Below, one piece after another: positions 8,486-50,169 of a stretch of 64,000 bases of DNA. Source of the stretch: the human T2T-CHM13v2.0 reference genome, Homo sapiens; the NCBI RefSeq assembly GCF_009914755.1, contig NC_060940.1, one strand, 5' to 3'. A program made the position numbers and the translations under genes. Each line of letters begins with the position of its first letter. Positions within the stretch are counted from its first letter, which is position 1. The notes beneath the pieces were generated by a model, which ran no database searches, had not been told where the DNA came from, and was given only the letters and a program-made list of their open reading frames with translations.

Positions 8486-8815
8486 TGATATGGTGTGTCC
8501 CCACCCAAATCTCATCTTGAATTATAGCTCCCATAATCCCCACATGTCATGAGAGGGACGCTGTGGGAGGTAATTGAGTCATAGGGGTGGGTTTTTCCCA
8601 TGCTGTTCTCATGGGAACACGAGATCTGACGGTTTTATAAAGGGCAGTTCCCCTGCACACACGCTCTTGCCTGCTGCCATGTAAGATGTGCCTTTGCTCC
8701 TCCTTTGCCTTCTGCCATGATTGTGAGACCTCCCCAGCCATGTGGAACTGTGAGTCCATTAAACCTCTTTTTCTTTATAAATTACCTAGTCTCAGGTATG
8801 AAAATGGACGATACA
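8486..8815 (+). mobile_element. THE1-type (ERVL-MaLR) solo LTR nested in an older hAT-type MER element (~8329-8900)
   Basis: TGATATGG...CCCCACCCAAATCTCATCTTGAATT start, ...GATACA end, near-perfect 5-bp TSD TTTGA/CTTGA. Confidence 0.85.
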
Positions 8816-27240: not shown

Positions 27241-28028
27241 ATGTCTGCCTACTACAGGAATAACTGGTCTGAGGAAGACCCAGATTACCCTGACTATTCA
27301 GGGTCTCAGAACCGTACGCAGGGGTATTTGAAAACTCAAGGTTATCCAGATGTTCCAGGTCCTCTGAACAATCCAGACTACCCCGGCACCAGGAGCAATC
27401 CATACTCTGTAGCCTCCAGAACACGTCCAGACTATCCTGGGTCTCTGGCAGAACCAAATTATCCTAGATCTCTGAGTAATCCAGACTATTCTGGCACCAG
27501 AAGCAATGCATACTCTGCAGCCTCTAGAACAAGCCCAGACCATCCTACCTCTCTACCAGAGCCAGATTATAGTGAATTTCAGAGTCATCCCTACCACCGA
27601 GCATCATCCAGACAACCAGACTACCCTGGATCTCAACGAAATCCTGATTTTGCAGGCTCCAGCAGCAGTGGAAACTATGCAGGCTCCAGAACACATCCAG
27701 ATCATTTTGGCTCCTTAGAACCGGACTACCCTGGAGCTCAGAGCAACTCTGATCATCCTGGACCCAGAGCCAATTTGAACCATCCAGGATCCAGAAAGAA
27801 TCTGGAACATACAAGTTTTAGAATCAATCCATACGCAGACTCTCTGGGAAAGCCTGATTATCCAGGCGCTGACATTCAACCTAACTCTCCACCCTTTTTT
27901 GGGGAGCCAGACTATCCCAGTGCTGAGGACAATCAGAACTTGCCAAGCACTTGGAGAGAACCTGATTATTCAGATGCTGAGAATGGTCATGATTATGGCT
28001 CTTCTGAGACCCCAAAGATGACCAGGGG
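27241..28028 (+). CDS. TMC5: TMC5 long-isoform first coding exon (exon starts 27162; MSAYYRNNWSEEDPDY...PKMTRG), PDY-repeat N-terminus
   Basis: Strong acceptor tttttcttttcttcttgtttttcag at 27161, ATG in ccaacATG context, 788 coding nt, donor GG|GTAAGT (phase 2) joining in frame to 31271. Protein recognised as the TMC5 N-terminus. Confidence 0.95.
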
Positions 28029-36738: not shown

Positions 36739-36828
36739 TGAACCCTGCTTATGTAGGTGAAAGTGGTCCTGTCCATGCTTATGGAAACCCACCATTGTCT
36801 GAATGTGATTGGCACAAGTCACCCCAAG
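36739..36828 (+). CDS. TMC5: TMC5 coding exon (VNPAYVGESGPVHAYGNPPLSECDWHKSPQ), symmetric 90 nt
   Basis: ccttcctcttccctccag acceptor, AAG|GTAAGT donor, phase 1-1. Confidence 0.92.
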
Positions 36829-36833
36829 GTAAG

Positions 36834-37202
36834 TGATATGGTTTGGCTCTGTGTCCCCACCCAACTCTCATTTCAAATTGTAATCCCCATGTGTCGGGGG
36901 AGAGACCTGGTGGGAGGTGATTGGATCATGGGGGTGGTTTCCCCCATGCTGTTCTCATGATATTGAGGGAGTTCCCTTGAAATCTGATGGTTTAAAAGTG
37001 ACAGCTTCCCCTGCACCCACTCTCTCTCCTGCCCCCATGTAAGATGTGCCCTTCTTTCCCCTATGCCTTCCACCACGTTTGTAAGTTTCCTGAGAAATGC
37101 CCCCCAGCCATGAGGAACTGTAAGACAATTAAACCTCTTTTGTCTATAAATTATGCAGTCTCAGGCAGTATTTTTATAGCAGTGTGAAAACAGACTAATA
37201 CA
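36834..37202 (+). mobile_element. Full-length THE1 (THE1D/MSTA-like, ERVL-MaLR) solo LTR, sense to TMC5
   Basis: TGATATGGTTTGGCTCTGTGTCCCCACCCAA start, GACTAATACA end, perfect 5-bp TSD GTAAG (36829-36833 and 37203-37207), ATTAAA at 37128-37133. Confidence 0.92.
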
Positions 37203-38116
37203 GTAAGACTTAAAGGACAGTGACCAAAAAGTCAACCCTGGAGAAGGAACATGTCCAAGACAATCTACCCATTGCCATTTCCTTTGACCTCCAGTGTGGT
37301 TACTGATGCAGAACCTGCTTAACATATCATAATGGAGTTTTCTTTTAGATGTATAGTTTGTTGTCTTCTGGGGATCAGGGTGTCTTCATTAGGAATCTTC
37401 TGGTTGCAAGTGACAGAAACCCAACTCAAACAGGCATTAGCCCAGGGGGAATTCATTGGCTCATGTGGTAGAAGCGTATGGGGGAAACTTAAAGAAATGA
37501 AAGTAGAAGTATTAGTACCTTCCAGCACCTAGTACAGTGCCTGGCACGTAGTAGGTATTTTAGGGATATTTGTTAGATTAATTTGTTGAATGAGTACAGA
37601 AATCAGGACCTCAGTCTGACGTCAGGGAACTCAATGTCACCTGGACTCTGGTTTCCCATCCATTTCTCATCTTTGTAAAACTTGCTTTTCAGTTCTGTAT
37701 GTATAGGTATGTCCTGGATCCTCAGCACCTCTTTAAGTTAGACCTCATTCATCTCCGTCAGAGTCAGGACTTGTCCACAGGCCAGAGAACACGGCCAATA
37801 GCAGGCCCACGTGAGCCCTCTGCTTAGCCACCTCATTAGGAAGTCTTGCTTCCTCCCTGGGTCCATCTCTAATGCGGGGGAAGGACTCTGGCCAGTCTAA
37901 CTGGAGCACATGCCTACACTTGAGCCAATCATTTTTACCACAAGGGACAAGACTGGGTCACCTGTCTATTCTGTGGCTAATGCCTGTGTTGGTGGGGACA
38001 AGATGCATTGATCAAAGTTTTTGTGAATATTCATATAATTATTATGATAATGGAGTGTGGAAGCAGTCAGACTGGTGAAAGATAGAAGGCGCTGCAATCA
38101 GTTAGGAAGCTCTCTA

Positions 38117-38377
<261 letters not shown>

Positions 38378-38719
38378 CTAGACTAGGGAGTGCTGGAGCC
38401 ACAAGGCAAATCTGTGAGCAACAAGGAATAAAGTAATGAGGTCCTCTATACAATGATGCGTGTGGAGAGAAGCCACTTAGAACTCTCACCTTTCAGCCCC
38501 ATCGCCTATAAGATAACCGTTAGCCTCATCCTTCAAGAGATGTATGCCTTTTCAGGGAGGGTTAGATATTGCTACTTGGAAGGGAAAACCGTTGGGATAT
38601 AAATGATCACACTGTCTATTTGGTCCCCACTGGGGCACAGAATGGCTTTAATTATCAGGGAGAATAAATATGTTTAAATGTTATGACTGCTCTGTCTTGC
38701 CAGCATGAGGTTTGGAGAC

Positions 38720-40227
<1,508 letters not shown>

Positions 40228-40786
40228 GGAACCCTGGTAGAAGAGGAGTCCCCAAAAGGCAGAGAGTAGTAAAGAAATAGAGGACCAAAAGATGAACCTG
40301 GCTGTCTTCATCATTTTGCTTTGTGTTGAATCTGATTCACAAACCACATGCAATTAAATAATAGCCCAGGCTGGGTGCACTGGCTCACACCTGTAATCCC
40401 AGGACTTCTGGAGGCTGAGGCAGGTAGATCACTTGAGTTCAGAGGTTTAAGAACAGCCTGAGCAACACAGTGAAACCCCATCTCTATGAAAAATAGAAAA
40501 TTTGGCCAAGCATGGTAGCTCATGCTTGTAATCCCAGCACTTTGGGAGGCCTAGGCGGGTGGATCACTTGAGGTCAGGAGTTTGAGACCAGCCTGCCCAA
40601 CATGGTGAAACTCCGTCTCTGCTAAAAATACAAAAGTTAGCTGGGCATGGTGGTACATGCCTGTGATCCCAGCTACTCAGGAGGCTCAGGCTGGAGAATC
40701 ACTTGAACCCGGGAGGCGGAGGTTGCCGTGAGCTGAGATCATGCCACTGCACTCCAGCCTGGGCAACAGAATGAGACTCTGTCTCA

Positions 40787-41023
<237 letters not shown>

Positions 41024-41232
41024 TTATGCTGTGTCCCTAGGAAGCACCTGCCACATAGTGTGCGTGCTTATATTCATTCATTTATGAATGAATATTTTGA
41101 GATGGAATCTCACTATATTGCTCCGACTGTTCTCAAATTCCTGGGCTCAAGCAATCCTCCCGCCTCAGCCTCCCAAGTAGCTGAGAATACAGGTGTGAGC
41201 CACCACCTCAGTTGGCAAGAATGAATGAATGA

Positions 41233-41546
<314 letters not shown>

Positions 41547-42443
41547 TGAATGAATGATATACCAGCCTCTTGTTACAGGAAGGGGCCAGAGTGAAATGAC
41601 TAAGAGTTCTGCTTTGGGTTCAGAGCAATCCGGATTTGACCCCAGCTCTACTGCTTGCTGGTTTTGTGACAAATTATTTCATGAAGCATCAGTTTTCTTA
41701 GCTATAAAATGGGGTTGATTTTAATATCTACTTCATAGCGTAAATGTTGTGCTCTATTTAAAGTACTTGGCCTGCAGTAATGGCAGGTATCATTACTGTT
41801 AATTATCACTGTTGGGAGAAGGAATACATGGGTTCTAGTTCAATTTTGACATTTAATGAAAGTGTGATGAGGAGGAACAGTGTCCGTTCAGCTCTCTGCA
41901 CCTCAATTTCTACAACTATTAAATAAACAACTAGGCCTAGGTGATTTGAAATTAGATCTATTGGATAGGAATTGTGTTTATGTGCCTGGCACTGGAACAG
42001 AAATGTGGCTTAGCAATAAAGGGGTTTATTTTTCTCATGTACTGAGAAGTGTGGGTTAGGTGCAATGGTTCACACCTGTAATCCCAGCACTCTGGGAAGC
42101 CAAGGTGGGAGAATTGCTTGAAACCAGGGGTTCGAGACCAGCCTGGACAACAAAGTGAGACCCTATGTCTTTAAAAAAAAACAAATAGCTGGGCATGGTG
42201 GTGCCCCTGTGGTCCCAGATACTCAGGAGGCTGAAGCAGGAGGATTACTTGATCCCAGGAGGTCAAGGCTGCAGTGAGTTATGATCACACTACTGCACTC
42301 CAGCCTGGGAAACAGAGCAAGACCTCATCTCTAAAAAAAAAAGTTTAAAAATTTGTACTTTTTTTTACATGCGGTGGCTCATGCCTGTAATCTCAGCACT
42401 TTGGGAGGCTGAGGCAGGCGAATCACTTGAGGTCAGGAGTTCA

Positions 42444-42716
<273 letters not shown>

Positions 42717-43216
42717 TCAAGGACTGAAGCCCCTTCTGCAGCCTTTTTCTCTACCATCCTTAGCAGGTGAACGTTCGTTCTCTTCTTTTCAAAATGTCTG
42801 GAGGAAGACTGGTGAAGGGCAAATTGTGAACCCAGGCAAACTGTCCCCTTAGAAAGAGCATTCCTGGAAGCCACAAGTCTCATTGGCTAAAACTGAGTCA
42901 CAGGCCCACCCTTAGCCGCAAAGAACACTGGGAGACTTTGAGCCCTATGTCTGCACAGGAAATGGAGCTTTTGCTGGTGTGAGAAAGAAGAAGATTAGAG
43001 ACTGAGAGCCAGACAAATAGCAGAGTCCACTACCTAAGGCATCAGGAGATAATAATTGTATCACTGTAAACCCATGTGGATTTCTACAGGCAGATAAAAC
43101 TACAGATATAAAATATAAGTTCAGCCAGGTGCTGTGTCTCACGCCTGTAATCCCAGCACTTTGGGAGGCCGAGGCAGGAGGATCACGAGGTCAGGAGATC
43201 GAGACCATCCTGGCTA

Positions 43217-43519
<303 letters not shown>

Positions 43520-43549
43520 CTAAATTATAAAAAAAAATCTTGCCCTTTG

Positions 43550-43903
43550 ACTATGAGTCATTTAGAAAAATATCTTCCTTCTGTTTCTAGAATCCCATTG
43601 TCTTAAATGAAAGATTCTGTTTTCGATTTCTTGCCTAGCTACCAAGACAGAATTCTCTGCAGGAAAACACTCCTTCTCCTGAGAAAACTCCTCAGGGGTT
43701 AGATGCAGGGAGTTATGTTGTGATTTGTGTAGGGGTGGCTTTGGTGAGCTCATCCTGGCATTTTAAAAATAATGTGAATGGTGTATCCCTTTGTGATCAT
43801 CATCACTTTTTCCCTGCGAGTCCCAATCAATGCGGGTGTGACTGCTGTATGAAGTCTCAGGAAGCCCACCCCAGTGGAGAAGAAGGCTTGCAGGAGGCAG
43901 GAG
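43550..43903 (+). promoter_or_regulatory. TMC5: Probable internal TMC5 promoter and 5'UTR for the short isoform
   Basis: Unique sequence upstream of ATG 43904 with AP-1 TGAGTCA 43554-43560, KLF-type AGGGGTGG 43731-43738 and GGGTGTG 43834-43840, CCAAT 43823-43827. Confidence 0.55.
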
Positions 43904-44213
43904 ATGCTGTCCGATGACCACGTGAATGAAATCATCATACAGGTTGAGAATGTTTCCTCTGGGGTCCAAAGCCACCCATCCTCAAATCAGATTTTTCAAG
44001 AAAAGGTGCTGCTAGACTCAAGCATCAACATGGTTTTGTCAATATCTGACATTGATGTGATAGACTCTCAGACAGTCAGCAAAAGGAATGACCAAAAGGG
44101 TAACCAGGTGCTGCGGTTTTCAACATCTTTGAATGAGTCGATGTCTCAGACCCTTCATAGCCTAGAATGCATGGGCATAGACACTCCTGGTTCTTCACAT
44201 GAAACTGTTCAAG
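43904..44213 (+). CDS. TMC5: TMC5 alternative first coding exon (MLSDDHVNEIIIQVENV...SSHETVQ)
   Basis: 310-nt non-repeat open frame ending at AAG|GTAGTG in phase 1, matching the phase-1 acceptor at 47430. Recognised as the N-terminus of the shorter TMC5 isoform. Confidence 0.88.
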
Positions 44214-44904
44214 GTAGTGAAATGCTGGGGAAGAGAAGTAGGGGAGTAGGAAAAAAGGCTTCCTCGTTGTCCACAGCATATTTTACTTTTTAGATATCAA
44301 GTGGGGCCAGGCGTGGTGGCTCACACCTATAATCCTACGGCTTTGGGAGGCCAAGATAAGAGGAACACTTGAGCCCAGGTGTTCGAGACTAGCCTGGGCA
44401 ACAAAGGGAGACCTCATTGCTACAAAAAAATTTAAAAAATAATAACCAGGCATGATGGTGCACACCTGTGGTCCCAGCTACTCAGGAGGCTAAGGTGGGA
44501 AGATCACTTGAGCCTAGGAGTTGGAGGCTGCAGCAAGCTCTGATGGCACCACTGCAACCCAGCCTGGGTGACAGAGTAAGATCCTGTCTCTAAAAGAAGG
44601 ACATTGAGTAATATGGAAGGGCGGAAGGTTTTGTGGTTGAACTAAGGAAGCCAAGGACAAAGGAAGGGATCAATTTAAGACATCCCTAACAAGAGCTTAT
44701 TTTTATCAAGCTTATTTTGTGTGCCTTGTGCTCTGCAGAGCACCTGCTTTTTGTTATCCATCGAATTTTTATGTACTCCCTGCACTCCACACCTTTGAGG
44801 TGGCATTTCCGTTTGCTTGATGAGGAAACTGAAGCTCAGATAAATTTAGTGACCTGGAAGATCTGGGGCCCAAATACAGGTCTATCTGATTCCCAAGACT
44901 ACAT

Positions 44905-44940
<36 letters not shown>

Positions 44941-44941
44941 A

Positions 44942-45043
<102 letters not shown>

Positions 45044-45412
45044 TGAGTAGCTGGGATTACAGGTGCATGTCACCACACCCATCTAATTTTTGTATTTTTA
45101 GTAGAGATGGGGTTTTACCATGTTGGCCAACCTTGTCTCGAACTCCTGGCCTCAGGTGATCTGCCCACCTTGACTTCCCAAAGTGCTGGGATGGATTACG
45201 GGTGTAAGCCACCACATCCAGCCTCAAGCCTGCATCCTTAATCGCTACACTGTCTCACTTTGGGCTAATTCCTCCTCACCCTGGTCAGGCAACAGATAGG
45301 ATGTCTCTTGTTGGCAAGATCATCAGGAAACCAGATCTTAGCTGAGACCTTCCAGCCTCTCTGCTCCTGAGGCCAATGGAGATGCTGTTTCTTTTAATTT
45401 AATTTAATTTAA

Positions 45413-46060
<648 letters not shown>

Positions 46061-47429
46061 TAACCCTGTGCTGTGACCAAGGAGCCAGCTTGCTCCCTCT
46101 GTCCCTCAGCCACCCTCGGCACGGTATCGCTGCCCCGCCTGCTGGCTTCTTTGCTACAGGATAGCAATAGCACTTCTCACATCACATGCAGACACAACAA
46201 TAATCAGAGGAAGAGACATCTGTCTTTTTCTTGTTTTTTGCTTTTTTTTTTTTTGAGAAGGAAGAAATATTTTCCGAGAAATTTCTCAGCACACACCTCT
46301 CAGAGGACATTGGCTAATGCTGTGTCACATGCCTGTGCTTAAACCAGTCACCTGCAAGGGGACAGGACCGTGAGGATTGGTTCACTCAGACTAAAACTTG
46401 CTCTTTGGGCCTAGAGATAGGCTCCACCTCAAGGAAGCTCAGGGCCATGTGAGGGAGGCAGGTAGATTCCTAAACACAATTGGAATTCCATTAACAAGGA
46501 GGAAATGAATTTGGGGTAGACAATAGCATCTGCCACATTGACTGCAAATGTGAATATGAGTTAGCAGGAGAAAAGGAGGGTGTACTTCTAGGAAGGTGGA
46601 AGGGCATTCAGCGATAGTCAAGGAATGTGAGAAGTCTCTTGAACCTGGGGTCAGGGGCAAAAGGAAGTGATGTGGGATATTAAAGCAAGAGAGCCAGGCG
46701 TGGTGGCTCACACCTGTAATCCTAGCAGTTTGGGAGGCTGAGGTGAGAAATCTCTTGAGGTCAGAAGTTTGAGACCACCTTGGGCAACATAGCAAGACCC
46801 CATCTCTACAAATAATAATTTTAAAAAATTAGCTGGTTGTCGTGGTGTGTGCCTGTAGTCCCAGCTACTCTGGAGGCTGAGGTGGGAGGATCGCTTGAGC
46901 CCAGGAGTTCAAGACCAGCCTGGGCAATGTAGTGAGACCTCAGCTTTACAAAAAAATAAAAAAATTAGCCAGACATGGTGGTGCATTGTGGTAATCACAA
47001 CACTTTGGGAGGCTGAGGTGGGAGGATCGCTTAAGTCCAGGAGATCAGTGTTGCAGTGGGCTGTGATTGTGCCACTGCACTCTAGCCTGGGTGACACAGC
47101 AAGATCCTGTCTCAAAAAAAAAAAAAAAAAAAATAGAAGAGGTAGGGTGACCAAACACGCAGGATCTTATTGACTTTGCTAAATGTTTTTTGTTACAGGA
47201 AAGAGAAAAACACTGAATTGGAATAAAGTGCAGCCATTATTCATTTGCTCTCACTTTGAGCTTTAACACATATATGTGTTTTTTTTGTTGTTTTCCTTTG
47301 TGATCTTTGAGATCCCCAACTCCATAAACTTCTTCCCTTGTGTTACGTGCTCTGACTTCAGCACCACATTTCAGTGTTACGATTCTGTTAAAGAAAAAAG
47401 AAATTAAATTCCATTAATTTCTTTCATAG

Positions 47430-49602: not shown

Positions 49603-50169
<567 letters not shown>

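What the first reader, a model, noticed from the sequence alone, without database searches (positions are those of the whole stretch)
36826..37208. THE1 LTR inserted exactly into a TMC5 splice donor; the TSD is the donor core GTAAG
Seen: the exon ends CAAG|GTAAG (36829-36833), the LTR starts at intron position +6 (TGATATGG, 36834), ends ...CTAATACA (37202) and is followed by a second GTAAG (37203-37207). Established: MaLR LTRs make 5-bp TSDs. Inference: the ancestral donor was AAG|GTAAGA. The LTR's first T converted it to the perfect AAG|GTAAGT, and a second donor-like ACA|GTAAGA was created at the far end. A retroelement landing inside a splice site and improving its U1 match is unusual.
Basis: partly seen in the sequence, partly recalled or inferred. 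Interest (0 to 1): 0.7.

Follow-up and report, generated by a model that had tools for sequence, protein, structure and literature searches.

The report
Old LTR lodged inside TMC5 splice donor
An ancient, harmless retroviral-type repeat end (a solo LTR about 40 million years old) sits five bases into a TMC5 intron, having copied the core of the splice signal when it landed, and the gene still splices normally: a neat but ordinary example of what a splice donor can tolerate.

Summary
The coding exon ends at 36828. GTAAG (36829-36833) is followed by a full-length 369-bp LTR (36834-37202, TG...CA, sense strand) and a second GTAAG (37203-37207). Genome-wide relatives stop matching at exactly these ends. 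They also carry 5-bp flanking duplications (8 of 29 perfect, against 0 at shifted offsets). The GTAAG pair is therefore a true target-site duplication. The element is a solo LTR of the simian-specific MaLR group, THE1-type. It is nearest to print-named THE1D copies and is not THE1A or THE1B, but the subfamily is not settled because it lies at the MSTA/THE1D transition. Divergence gives about 40 My (29-58 My), which fits print (simians only, more than 40 My). The LTR's first bases extend U1 pairing from 7 to 9 contiguous pairs (-9.5 to -11.4 kcal/mol). The far-end GTAAG is weak (-4.5). Read-through meets an in-frame stop at once. All four RefSeq mRNAs that contain the exon use the upstream donor. 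The ancestral +6 A and the age of the exon are inferred, because no outgroup genomes were available. Repeats abutting donors are rare but known (21 of 9479 donors on chr16; Zhang et al. 2011). This is a tolerated insertion, with no evidence of selection.

The parts
36739..36828 (+). TMC5 coding exon (90 nt), fifth exon of the RefSeq 'select' mRNA NM_001261841.2. It ends one base into a codon.
   Evidence: RefSeq table. Its translation is open. CDS length up to the exon end is 1048 nt, mod 3 = 1.
36826..36836 (+). The working 5' splice site, positions -3 to +8 (AAG|GTAAGTGA). Positions -3 to +5 are host DNA and +6 to +8 are the first three LTR bases.
   Evidence: Used by 4 of 5 RefSeq mRNAs. 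It forms 8 Watson-Crick pairs plus 1 G-U in register with the U1 5' end read from locus L031, a run of 9 with duplex energy -11.4 kcal/mol. That ties for second strongest of the 13 annotated donors in the window.
36829..36833 (+). Left copy of the 5-bp target-site duplication (GTAAG), which is intron positions +1 to +5.
36834..37202 (+). Solo LTR, 369 bp, TG...CA, of a simian-specific MaLR. It is THE1-type and nearest to THE1D. It lies in the sense orientation to TMC5 and is full length relative to its relatives. No inner sequence is attached.
   Evidence: relatives align across bases 1-369; naming; age.
36834..36836 (+). TGA in the TMC5 reading frame, formed by the first three LTR bases. Any transcript that skips the donor terminates three codons after the exon.
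   Evidence: TGA is shared by 26 of 29 relatives at this position, so it came with the LTR.
37128..37133 (+). ATTAAA hexamer of the LTR on the sense strand of TMC5 (a poly(A)-signal type; that role is recalled, not tested).
   Evidence: identical in 25 of 29 relatives. No RefSeq transcript ends here.
37203..37207 (+). Right copy of the target-site duplication (GTAAG). With its context ACA|GTAAGACT it is a weak donor-like site.
   Evidence: One search gives 5 contiguous U1 pairs and -4.5 kcal/mol. Using it would add 374 nt (mod 3 = 2) behind an in-frame stop. No annotated transcript uses it.
37208..47429 (+). The rest of the host intron (the whole intron 36829-47429 is 10,601 nt, GT...AG). Its first base, A at 37208, is the inferred pre-insertion +6. 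The alternative first exon 43658-44213 of NM_024780.5 lies inside it.

Best explanation
About 40 million years ago, in an ancestral simian, a MaLR retrotransposon of the THE1 group (nearest THE1D) integrated in the sense orientation into the 5' splice site of a TMC5 coding exon. The staggered cut spanned intron positions +1 to +5, so repair duplicated GTAAG on both sides.

The left copy stayed joined to the exon, so positions -3 to +5 of the donor were untouched. The element's own first bases (T, G) took positions +6 and +7, where they pair with U1 better than the former A and C did. The right copy ended up behind the element's ...ACA, a poor exon-side context, and is not used. Later the two LTRs recombined, leaving the 369-bp solo LTR.

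Splicing went on from the old donor and the LTR is removed with the 10.6-kb intron. The insertion was tolerated because a donor needs only about the first six intron bases; it need not have been favoured.

Shown here: the ends, the duplication, the family-level identity, the approximate age, the U1 pairing values and the annotated use of the donor. Inferred: the pre-insertion sequence, the existence of the exon at the time of insertion, the full-length intermediate and neutrality.
For: - **Sequence and ends.** In one search, 18 of 39 hits start exactly at 36834 and 15 of 39 end exactly at 37202. In one search, all 29 relatives align to both ends.
- **The 5-bp duplication is a family trait.** 8 of 29 relatives have a perfect one and 13 of 29 are within one mismatch at offset 0, against 0 perfect at eight shifted offsets.
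- **It is a solo LTR.** Host duplication lies directly on both sides. About 8 of the 29 relatives are instead joined to inner sequence on one side.
- **T at +6 came with the element.** T is the first base in 28 of 29 relatives.
- **U1 pairing.** Current donor: run of 9, -11.4 kcal/mol. Computed empty site: run of 7, -9.5. Far end: run of 5, -4.5.
- **Donor use.** 4 of 5 RefSeq mRNAs use the donor and none uses the far end.
- **Family.** K2P to print-named copies is 0.274 for THE1D, 0.304 for THE1C-region copies, 0.306 for THE1B, 0.349 for MSTA-region 400-423-bp copies and 0.39 for THE1A.
- **Age.** The three-point terminal branch is 0.088. The LTR-to-kin median of 0.179 equals the kin-to-kin median of 0.180, so the pattern is star-like.
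- **Print.** THE1A-D, MSTA and MSTB occur in simians only and are absent from tarsier, mouse lemur and bushbaby (PMC10735291, sections 3-4 read). THE1B entered about 50 My ago (PMC6166974, passages). TEs within 20 bp of exons are biased to the donor side because the donor core is about 6 intron bases (PMC3088655, abstract and passages).
Against: - No outgroup or other primate genome could be read, so neither the empty site nor the ancestral A at +6 was observed.
- The one protein search aimed at orthologues found nothing (71 candidates, none at E <= 0.001, and only proteins of 144-459 aa could be seen). The age of the exon is therefore untested.
- Subfamily placement is weak (27 of 100 bootstraps for the main topology). 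The LTR and all 29 relatives lack a 9-nt stretch that both print-named THE1D copies have.
- The relatives are the best 29 loci out of 6036 first-look candidates, so they are a biased sample for dating.
- The substitution rate used (2.2e-9 per site per year) is recalled, not taken from a call.
- Use of the donor rests on annotation alone; no expression data were seen.
Confidence: 0.85

Rival explanations
1. The exon, or its use of this donor, is younger than the LTR. The element landed in plain intronic DNA that happened to read AAGGTAAGA. Only afterwards, perhaps helped by the T at +6, was the upstream 90 nt recruited as an exon.
For: No orthologue evidence for the exon could be obtained (one search was blank). 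The N-terminal part of TMC5 is repeat-rich, low-complexity sequence, a kind that often evolves fast. The LTR strengthens the site.
Against: The computed empty-site donor already pairs with U1 over 7 contiguous positions (-9.5 kcal/mol). That would rank about sixth among the 13 annotated donors of the window. A 9-mer that good lying by chance exactly at the end of an in-frame 90-nt open stretch is unlikely. The exon is coding in all four long mRNAs.
Confidence: 0.07
2. The insertion was favoured rather than merely tolerated. Stronger U1 pairing, G-triplets brought close to the donor and an immediate in-frame stop raised or secured inclusion of the exon in simians.
For: In one search, U1 pairing rises by 1.9 kcal/mol and two more paired positions. 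In one search there are 6 GGG starts in the first 100 nt after +5 now, against 0 in the host flank that formerly lay there; that such runs enhance splicing is recalled, not tested. In some searches the in-frame TGA is native to the LTR. Sense-oriented solo LTRs this close to exons are scarce: 101 within 0-200 bp of an exon in human introns (PMC3088655, passage).
Against: The old donor was already good. Nothing here measures inclusion. Scarcity near exons is explained in print by purifying selection against most insertions, which predicts a few neutral survivors exactly where the donor core ends.
Confidence: 0.05
3. The two GTAAGs match by chance, so there is no meaningful duplication. Alternatively, the true LTR ends lie elsewhere and the element merely abuts the donor.
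For: The soft-mask stretches overshoot both ends by 6-7 nt. GTAAG also occurs three times inside the LTR, so the word is not rare locally.
Against: The ends are fixed by 39 independent genome hits and 29 aligned relatives that start TG in 26 and end CA in 24. A chance 5-mer match is 1 in 1024. The family shows 5-bp duplications at exactly this offset and at no other.
Confidence: 0.03

Closest known systems
THE1D LTRs named in print (the placental IL2RB promoter, PMC13313205; the LTR 20 kb upstream of WNT5A, PMC6558280)
   Same: Same MaLR architecture: TG...CA ends, about 370 bp, alignable across the whole length. They are the nearest print-named class (mean K2P 0.274). Like them, and unlike THE1A and THE1B, the TMC5 LTR keeps the 9 nt at LTR coordinates 250-258.
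   Different: Both named THE1D copies carry an extra 9-12 nt after LTR coordinate 46. The TMC5 LTR and all 29 of its closest relatives lack it. Those copies act as promoters at gene starts, whereas this one is an intronic passenger with no annotated transcript start.
MSTA, the predecessor family of THE1 in the succession model of Zuo 2023 (PMC10735291)
   Same: Simian-only MaLR LTR with the same ends. Like the copies found upstream of genes listed as MSTA-associated (PMC4419796), the TMC5 LTR lacks the 9-nt stretch at coordinate 46.
   Different: Those copies carry 15-36 extra nt after LTR coordinate 271, and three of them 24-26 extra nt near coordinate 104. The TMC5 LTR and its relatives lack both. 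K2P is 0.349 to the 400-423-bp group and 0.268 to the 374-385-bp group. The labels of these copies are inferred from a gene list, not from coordinates.
Transposable elements within 20 bp of exons (Zhang, Romanish and Mager 2011, PMC3088655)
   Same: This is the same phenomenon. The few fixed TEs that lie very close to exons lie mostly on the donor side, because only about six intron bases are needed there. This LTR starts at +6.
   Different: Here the integration cut lay inside the donor itself, so the duplication copies GTAAG and the element supplies +6 and +7. It is also sense-oriented, which that paper finds to be the more harmful orientation for LTRs. I saw no such case described in the passages I read; the paper's supplements were not open.
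Disease-causing intronic TE insertions near splice sites (summarised in PMC3088655)
   Same: A retroelement within a few bases of an exon boundary.
   Different: Those insertions disrupt splicing and lie mostly near acceptors. This one is fixed in the reference, old, and leaves the annotated splice intact.

Membership tests
ERVL-MaLR LTR (THE1/MST group) | The LTR begins TG and ends CA | tested here: met
   Relatives start TG in 26 of 29 and end CA in 24 of 29.
ERVL-MaLR LTR (THE1/MST group) | 5-bp target-site duplication | tested here: met
   GTAAG lies on both sides. Among relatives, 8 of 29 have a perfect duplication and 13 of 29 are within one mismatch at offset 0, with 0 perfect at eight other offsets.
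ERVL-MaLR LTR (THE1/MST group) | Full-length similarity to thousands of dispersed copies | tested here: met
   6036 first-look candidates, 40 scored, 39 non-self at 82-86% identity over the whole LTR, on many chromosomes.
THE1 (subfamilies A-D) | Closer to print-named THE1 copies than to MST copies | tested here: inconclusive
   K2P is 0.274 to THE1D and 0.349 to the MSTA-region 400-423-bp copies, but 0.268 to an unlabelled 374-385-bp group found in MSTA-listed regions. Bootstrap support is 27 of 100. Indel characters are intermediate.
THE1A / THE1B | THE1A carries the deletions that print gives against THE1B (226_235del and 303_312delinsTT). A and B copies lack 9 nt at LTR coordinates 250-258. 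| tested here: not met
   The TMC5 LTR keeps all three stretches. The named THE1A copy lacks 10 nt and 8 nt at the matching places, and A and B copies lack the 9 nt (print PMC10735291 section 4).
THE1 (subfamilies A-D) | Pairing with the THE1-type inner sequence | not tested
This copy is a solo LTR with no inner part.
Simian-specific insertion | Present at the orthologous site in simians and absent in tarsier, strepsirrhines and non-primates | not testable with these tools
   No primate or mammalian genome other than this reference was available. Family-level distribution comes from print only (PMC10735291).
Solo LTR | A single LTR flanked directly by its duplication, with no inner sequence and no partner LTR nearby | tested here: met
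   The only other related pieces in the window lie 28 kb and 12 kb away, are about 71% identical and are partial.
Functional U2-type 5' splice site | GT at the exon end, pairing with the U1 5' end, and use in transcripts | tested here: met
   Annotated in 4 of 5 mRNAs with 9 contiguous pairs to U1. Use rests on RefSeq annotation; no expression data were seen.

The most novel reading that the evidence does not exclude
The LTR did more than survive. It supplied +6 T and +7 G, six G-triplets within 100 nt and an immediate in-frame stop. This may have changed how firmly this 90-nt coding exon is included in simian TMC5, shifting the balance between the long isoforms and the short isoform that starts inside the same intron. 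That would be a case of a retroelement tuning a splice site from within it.
Probability: 0.08. Interest if true: 0.5.

Novelty: new member of a known kind. Interest (0 to 1): 0.3.

Why it matters
This is a clean natural example of how little intron a splice donor needs. A retroelement cut into positions +1 to +5, and the gene was left intact because the duplication restored those five bases next to the exon. It marks the inner edge of the hazardous zone described for intronic TEs, and it gives a dated marker (simian, about 40 My) in TMC5. If outgroups show that exon inclusion differs with and without the LTR, it would become an example of a splice site strengthened by an insertion. As it stands it is a tidy curiosity and not a new mechanism.

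Tried and rejected
**Orthologue proteins.** The search for homologous proteins with the first coding exon (262 aa) gave 71 candidates and none at E <= 0.001. 826 sample-only candidates were left out by the tool. Full-length TMC5 (about 1000 aa) lies outside the length range for any single-exon query, and joined exons may not be typed, so the age of the exon was not tested.

**Census of other donor-adjacent repeats.** I wanted the sequence of the other 20 chr16 donors that have a mask starting at +1 to +6, to see how many have a duplication covering the GT.

**Subfamily naming.**
- An NJ tree with 100 bootstraps did not resolve the subfamily.
- The THE1C and MSTA labels rest on gene lists ('within 10 kb upstream', PMC4419796), not on coordinates, so some labelled copies may be other MaLRs.
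- One of the 17 regions (PAMR1) had no related copy.
- The first three WNT5A stretches also had none. The copy was then found at the annotated gene start.
- IL23R and THOC5 start regions gave no copy.
- Supplementary figures of Zuo 2023, which show the diagnostic features of the subfamilies, were closed.

**Soft-mask edges.** I rejected these as a guide to the LTR ends because they are nameless and overshoot.

**Splice scoring.** MaxEntScan and SpliceAI were not available, so U1 duplex energy and in-register pair counts were used instead.

**Print searches.** These cover the held library only.
- TMC5+THE1: 0 papers.
- TMC5+LTR+splice donor: 0 papers.
- 'Target site duplication' + 'splice donor site' + 'LTR insertion': 2 papers, judged unrelated from their titles and abstract starts.

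**Failed script.** One search was an unfinished script that printed only the LTR length and ends.

Full report
**What is in the sequence.**
- The window reads ...CACCCCAAG | GTAAG | TGATATGG...CTAATACA | GTAAG | ACTTAAAGG.
- The exon ends at 36828. The first GTAAG is 36829-36833, the repeat is 36834-37202 (369 bp), and the second GTAAG is 37203-37207.
- RefSeq has five TMC5 mRNAs. Four of them, including the 'select' NM_001261841.2, contain exon 36739-36828 and splice it to 47430. The fifth starts at 43658 inside that intron. None extends past 36828.
- The intron is 10,601 nt, GT...AG.
- No enhancer, silencer or other functional element is listed between 35500 and 38500, only nameless mask stretches.

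**Are the LTR ends right?**
- I searched the LTR with 100 nt of flank on each side against the whole genome. There were 6036 first-look candidates, of which 40 were scored and 39 were non-self, at 82-86% identity.
- Eighteen of the 39 start exactly at 36834 and 25 within one base of it. Fifteen end exactly at 37202 and 27 within one base. The rest scatter by a few bases, as expected from chance extension.
- In local alignments, all 29 fetched relatives (L002-L030) cover the LTR to or near both ends. They begin TG in 26 and end CA in 24.
- The RefSeq soft mask (36828-36968 and 37075-37209) overshoots and carries no names, so I did not use it.

**Is GTAAG a target-site duplication?**
- For the 29 relatives I compared the 5-mer before the LTR with 5-mers after it at nine offsets.
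- At offset 0, eight are identical and thirteen are within one mismatch. At the eight other offsets none is identical and at most one is within one mismatch.
- About eight of the remaining relatives are joined to inner sequence on one side (shared flanks), so they cannot show a duplication around a single LTR.
- A 5-bp duplication is therefore a measured property of this family. The pair at TMC5 is one, and it cannot be extended (G at 36828 against A at 37202).
- The LTR is solo. Host duplication touches both ends, and the only other related pieces in the window are partial and about 71% identical (8494-8796 and 49603-49811).

**Family.**
- No repeat library was at hand, so I named the LTR from copies that print names. 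In each case I found the related copy at the stated place in this genome.

| Label | Where the copy lies | Source of the label |
|---|---|---|
| THE1A | Start of SQOR | PMC10735291 |
| THE1B | Upstream of CRH and of TNFRSF11A | PMC6166974, PMC6558280 |
| THE1D | Annotated starts of IL2RB and WNT5A | PMC13313205, PMC6558280 |
| THE1C- or MSTA-associated | Within 10 kb upstream of listed genes | PMC4419796 |

- Mean K2P distances from the TMC5 LTR are as follows.

| Class | Mean K2P |
|---|---|
| Unlabelled 374-385-bp group from MSTA-listed regions | 0.268 |
| THE1D | 0.274 |
| THE1C-region | 0.304 |
| THE1B | 0.306 |
| 400-423-bp MSTA-region copies | 0.349 |
| THE1A | 0.39 |

- In an NJ tree the LTR and its 29 relatives form their own cluster at the base of the THE1 D/C/B/A radiation. 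Only 27 of 100 bootstraps give that topology. The relatives were also chosen as best hits, which favours such a cluster.
- Indels give an ordered series:
  - MSTA-region copies have 15-36 extra nt after LTR coordinate 271.
  - The TMC5 LTR and all 29 relatives have neither that stretch nor the 9-12 nt after coordinate 46, which both THE1D copies, the CRH THE1B copy and the THE1A copy carry.
  - THE1A and THE1B copies lack 9 nt at coordinates 250-258.
  - The THE1A copy also lacks 10 nt and 8 nt at the places where print gives 226_235del and 303_312delinsTT (PMC10735291, section 4).
- The element is thus a simian-type MaLR LTR of THE1 grade. It is nearest THE1D, certainly not A or B, and it lies structurally between MSTA-type and the named THE1D copies.
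- The supplement of Zuo 2023 that shows the diagnostic features was closed.

**Age.**
- Pairwise K2P between the LTR and its relatives (median 0.179) equals that among the relatives (median 0.180 over 406 pairs). This is a star-like pattern.
- The three-point estimate of the LTR's own branch is 0.088, against a median of 0.091 and a range of 0.060-0.117 for the relatives.
- At a recalled neutral rate of 2.2e-9 per site per year this gives about 40 My, and 29-58 My for rates of 3.0e-9 to 1.5e-9.
- Only 2 CpG remain, against 12 GpC.
- Print agrees. THE1A-D, MSTA and MSTB are found in simians only, so they are younger than the split from tarsiers (within 70 My), and they are called more than 40 My old (PMC10735291, sections 3-4; PMC10204343, abstract passage). 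THE1B is put at about 50 My (PMC6166974, passage).
- Whether the insertion predates the split of New World and Old World monkeys cannot be told from this.

**The splice site.**
- I read the U1 5' end from a U1 gene found with the Rfam model. I then scored sites from -3 to +8.

| Site | Sequence | In-register pairing | Duplex energy (kcal/mol) |
|---|---|---|---|
| Present donor | AAG\|GTAAGTGA | 8 Watson-Crick + 1 G-U, run of 9 | -11.4 |
| Computed empty site | AAG\|GTAAGACT | Run of 7 | -9.5 |
| Far-end site | ACA\|GTAAGACT | Run of 5 | -4.5 |

- The present donor ties for second strongest of the 13 annotated donors in the window. The empty-site value would rank about sixth of 13.
- The old donor was therefore already good, and the LTR added two paired positions. 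T as the first LTR base (28 of 29 relatives) and TGA as its first three bases (26 of 29) are native to the family, so they arrived with the insertion.
- In the TMC5 frame that TGA is a stop three codons after the exon. Use of the far-end site would add 374 nt, which is out of frame.
- The LTR also carries donor-like GTAAGs at 37039 and 37081 (each shared by 21 of 29 relatives) and at 37120 (3 of 29). An ATTAAA lies at 37128-37133 (25 of 29). No annotated transcript uses any of them.
- The first 100 nt after +5 now hold six GGG starts, against none in the former flank. That such runs help donors is recalled, not tested.
- It is also only a recalled idea that strong U1 binding suppresses nearby poly(A) sites, which could explain why a sense LTR is tolerated here.

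**How unusual is it?**
- On chr16, 21 of 9479 unique donors of NM_ transcripts (this one included) have a mask stretch starting at intron +1 to +6 while the exon is under 10% masked. Fourteen more have one starting at +7 to +10.
- These masks are nameless, at least 100 bp long and fuzzy at the edges, so this is an upper bound for true cases. I could not fetch the other 20 sites to check their duplications.
- Zhang, Romanish and Mager 2011 (PMC3088655, abstract and passages) report three relevant points:
  - TEs within 20 bp of exons lie mostly at donors because the donor core is about six intron bases.
  - LTRs are depleted within 2 kb of exons, and sense LTRs are the more harmful orientation.
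  - Only 101 sense solo LTRs of 200-600 bp lie within 200 bp of an exon in human introns.
- The TMC5 case is therefore an extreme member of a known, small class.
- I found no paper that mentions it (both 0 papers) and none on a duplication of a donor core by an LTR (two papers that look unrelated by title and abstract start). These searches cover only the held library.

**Verdict.** A THE1-grade MaLR integrated into positions +1 to +5 of a working TMC5 donor about 40 My ago. It duplicated GTAAG, left the donor intact, slightly improved it, and later collapsed to a solo LTR. The pre-insertion sequence and the age of the exon are inferences that need outgroup genomes. There is no evidence that the change was selected. 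Interest is modest.

Noticed in passing
window 8494-8796 (+) and 49603-49811 (-): Two more partial MaLR-type LTR pieces related to the TMC5 LTR (71.6% and 70.5% identity, covering LTR bases 17-332 and 149-369) lie in other TMC5 introns.
   Followed up: no
L025 (G000 chr1:61723482-61723855, + strand, inside PATJ): This relative has a one-mismatch 5-bp duplication, and the host bases right after the LTR read like a consensus splice donor. Exon tables for chr1 were not available, so I could not tell whether an exon ends there.
   Followed up: no
window 37120-37126 and 37203-37209: The same 7-mer occurs inside the LTR and at the far junction. The inner GTAAG there is shared by only 3 of 29 relatives, so it is a private change of this copy and the match is probably coincidence.
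   Followed up: partly
window 36828-36968 and 37075-37209: The RefSeq soft-mask stretches overshoot the LTR by 6-7 nt at both ends, which covers both GTAAG copies and the last exon base. About 106 nt in the middle of the LTR are not in any listed stretch of 100 nt or more.
   Followed up: no
window 27241-28026: The first coding exon of TMC5 encodes 262 aa of proline- and tyrosine-rich short repeats. A protein search limited to 144-459 aa found nothing at E <= 0.001.
   Followed up: partly
L040 (IL2RB), L061 (WNT5A), L043 (SQOR): The RefSeq gene starts of IL2RB, WNT5A and SQOR in this assembly fall inside MaLR LTR copies. This agrees with print that LTR-initiated transcripts exist for these genes.
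   Followed up: partly
L034-L061, named LTR copies: The indel differences among single named copies reproduce the order MSTA-type, THE1D/C, THE1B, THE1A. They also reproduce the two THE1A deletions given in Zuo 2023. The closest relatives of the TMC5 LTR form a structurally distinct type, lacking both the stretch at coordinate 46 and that at 271, which none of the print-named classes matched cleanly.
   Followed up: partly
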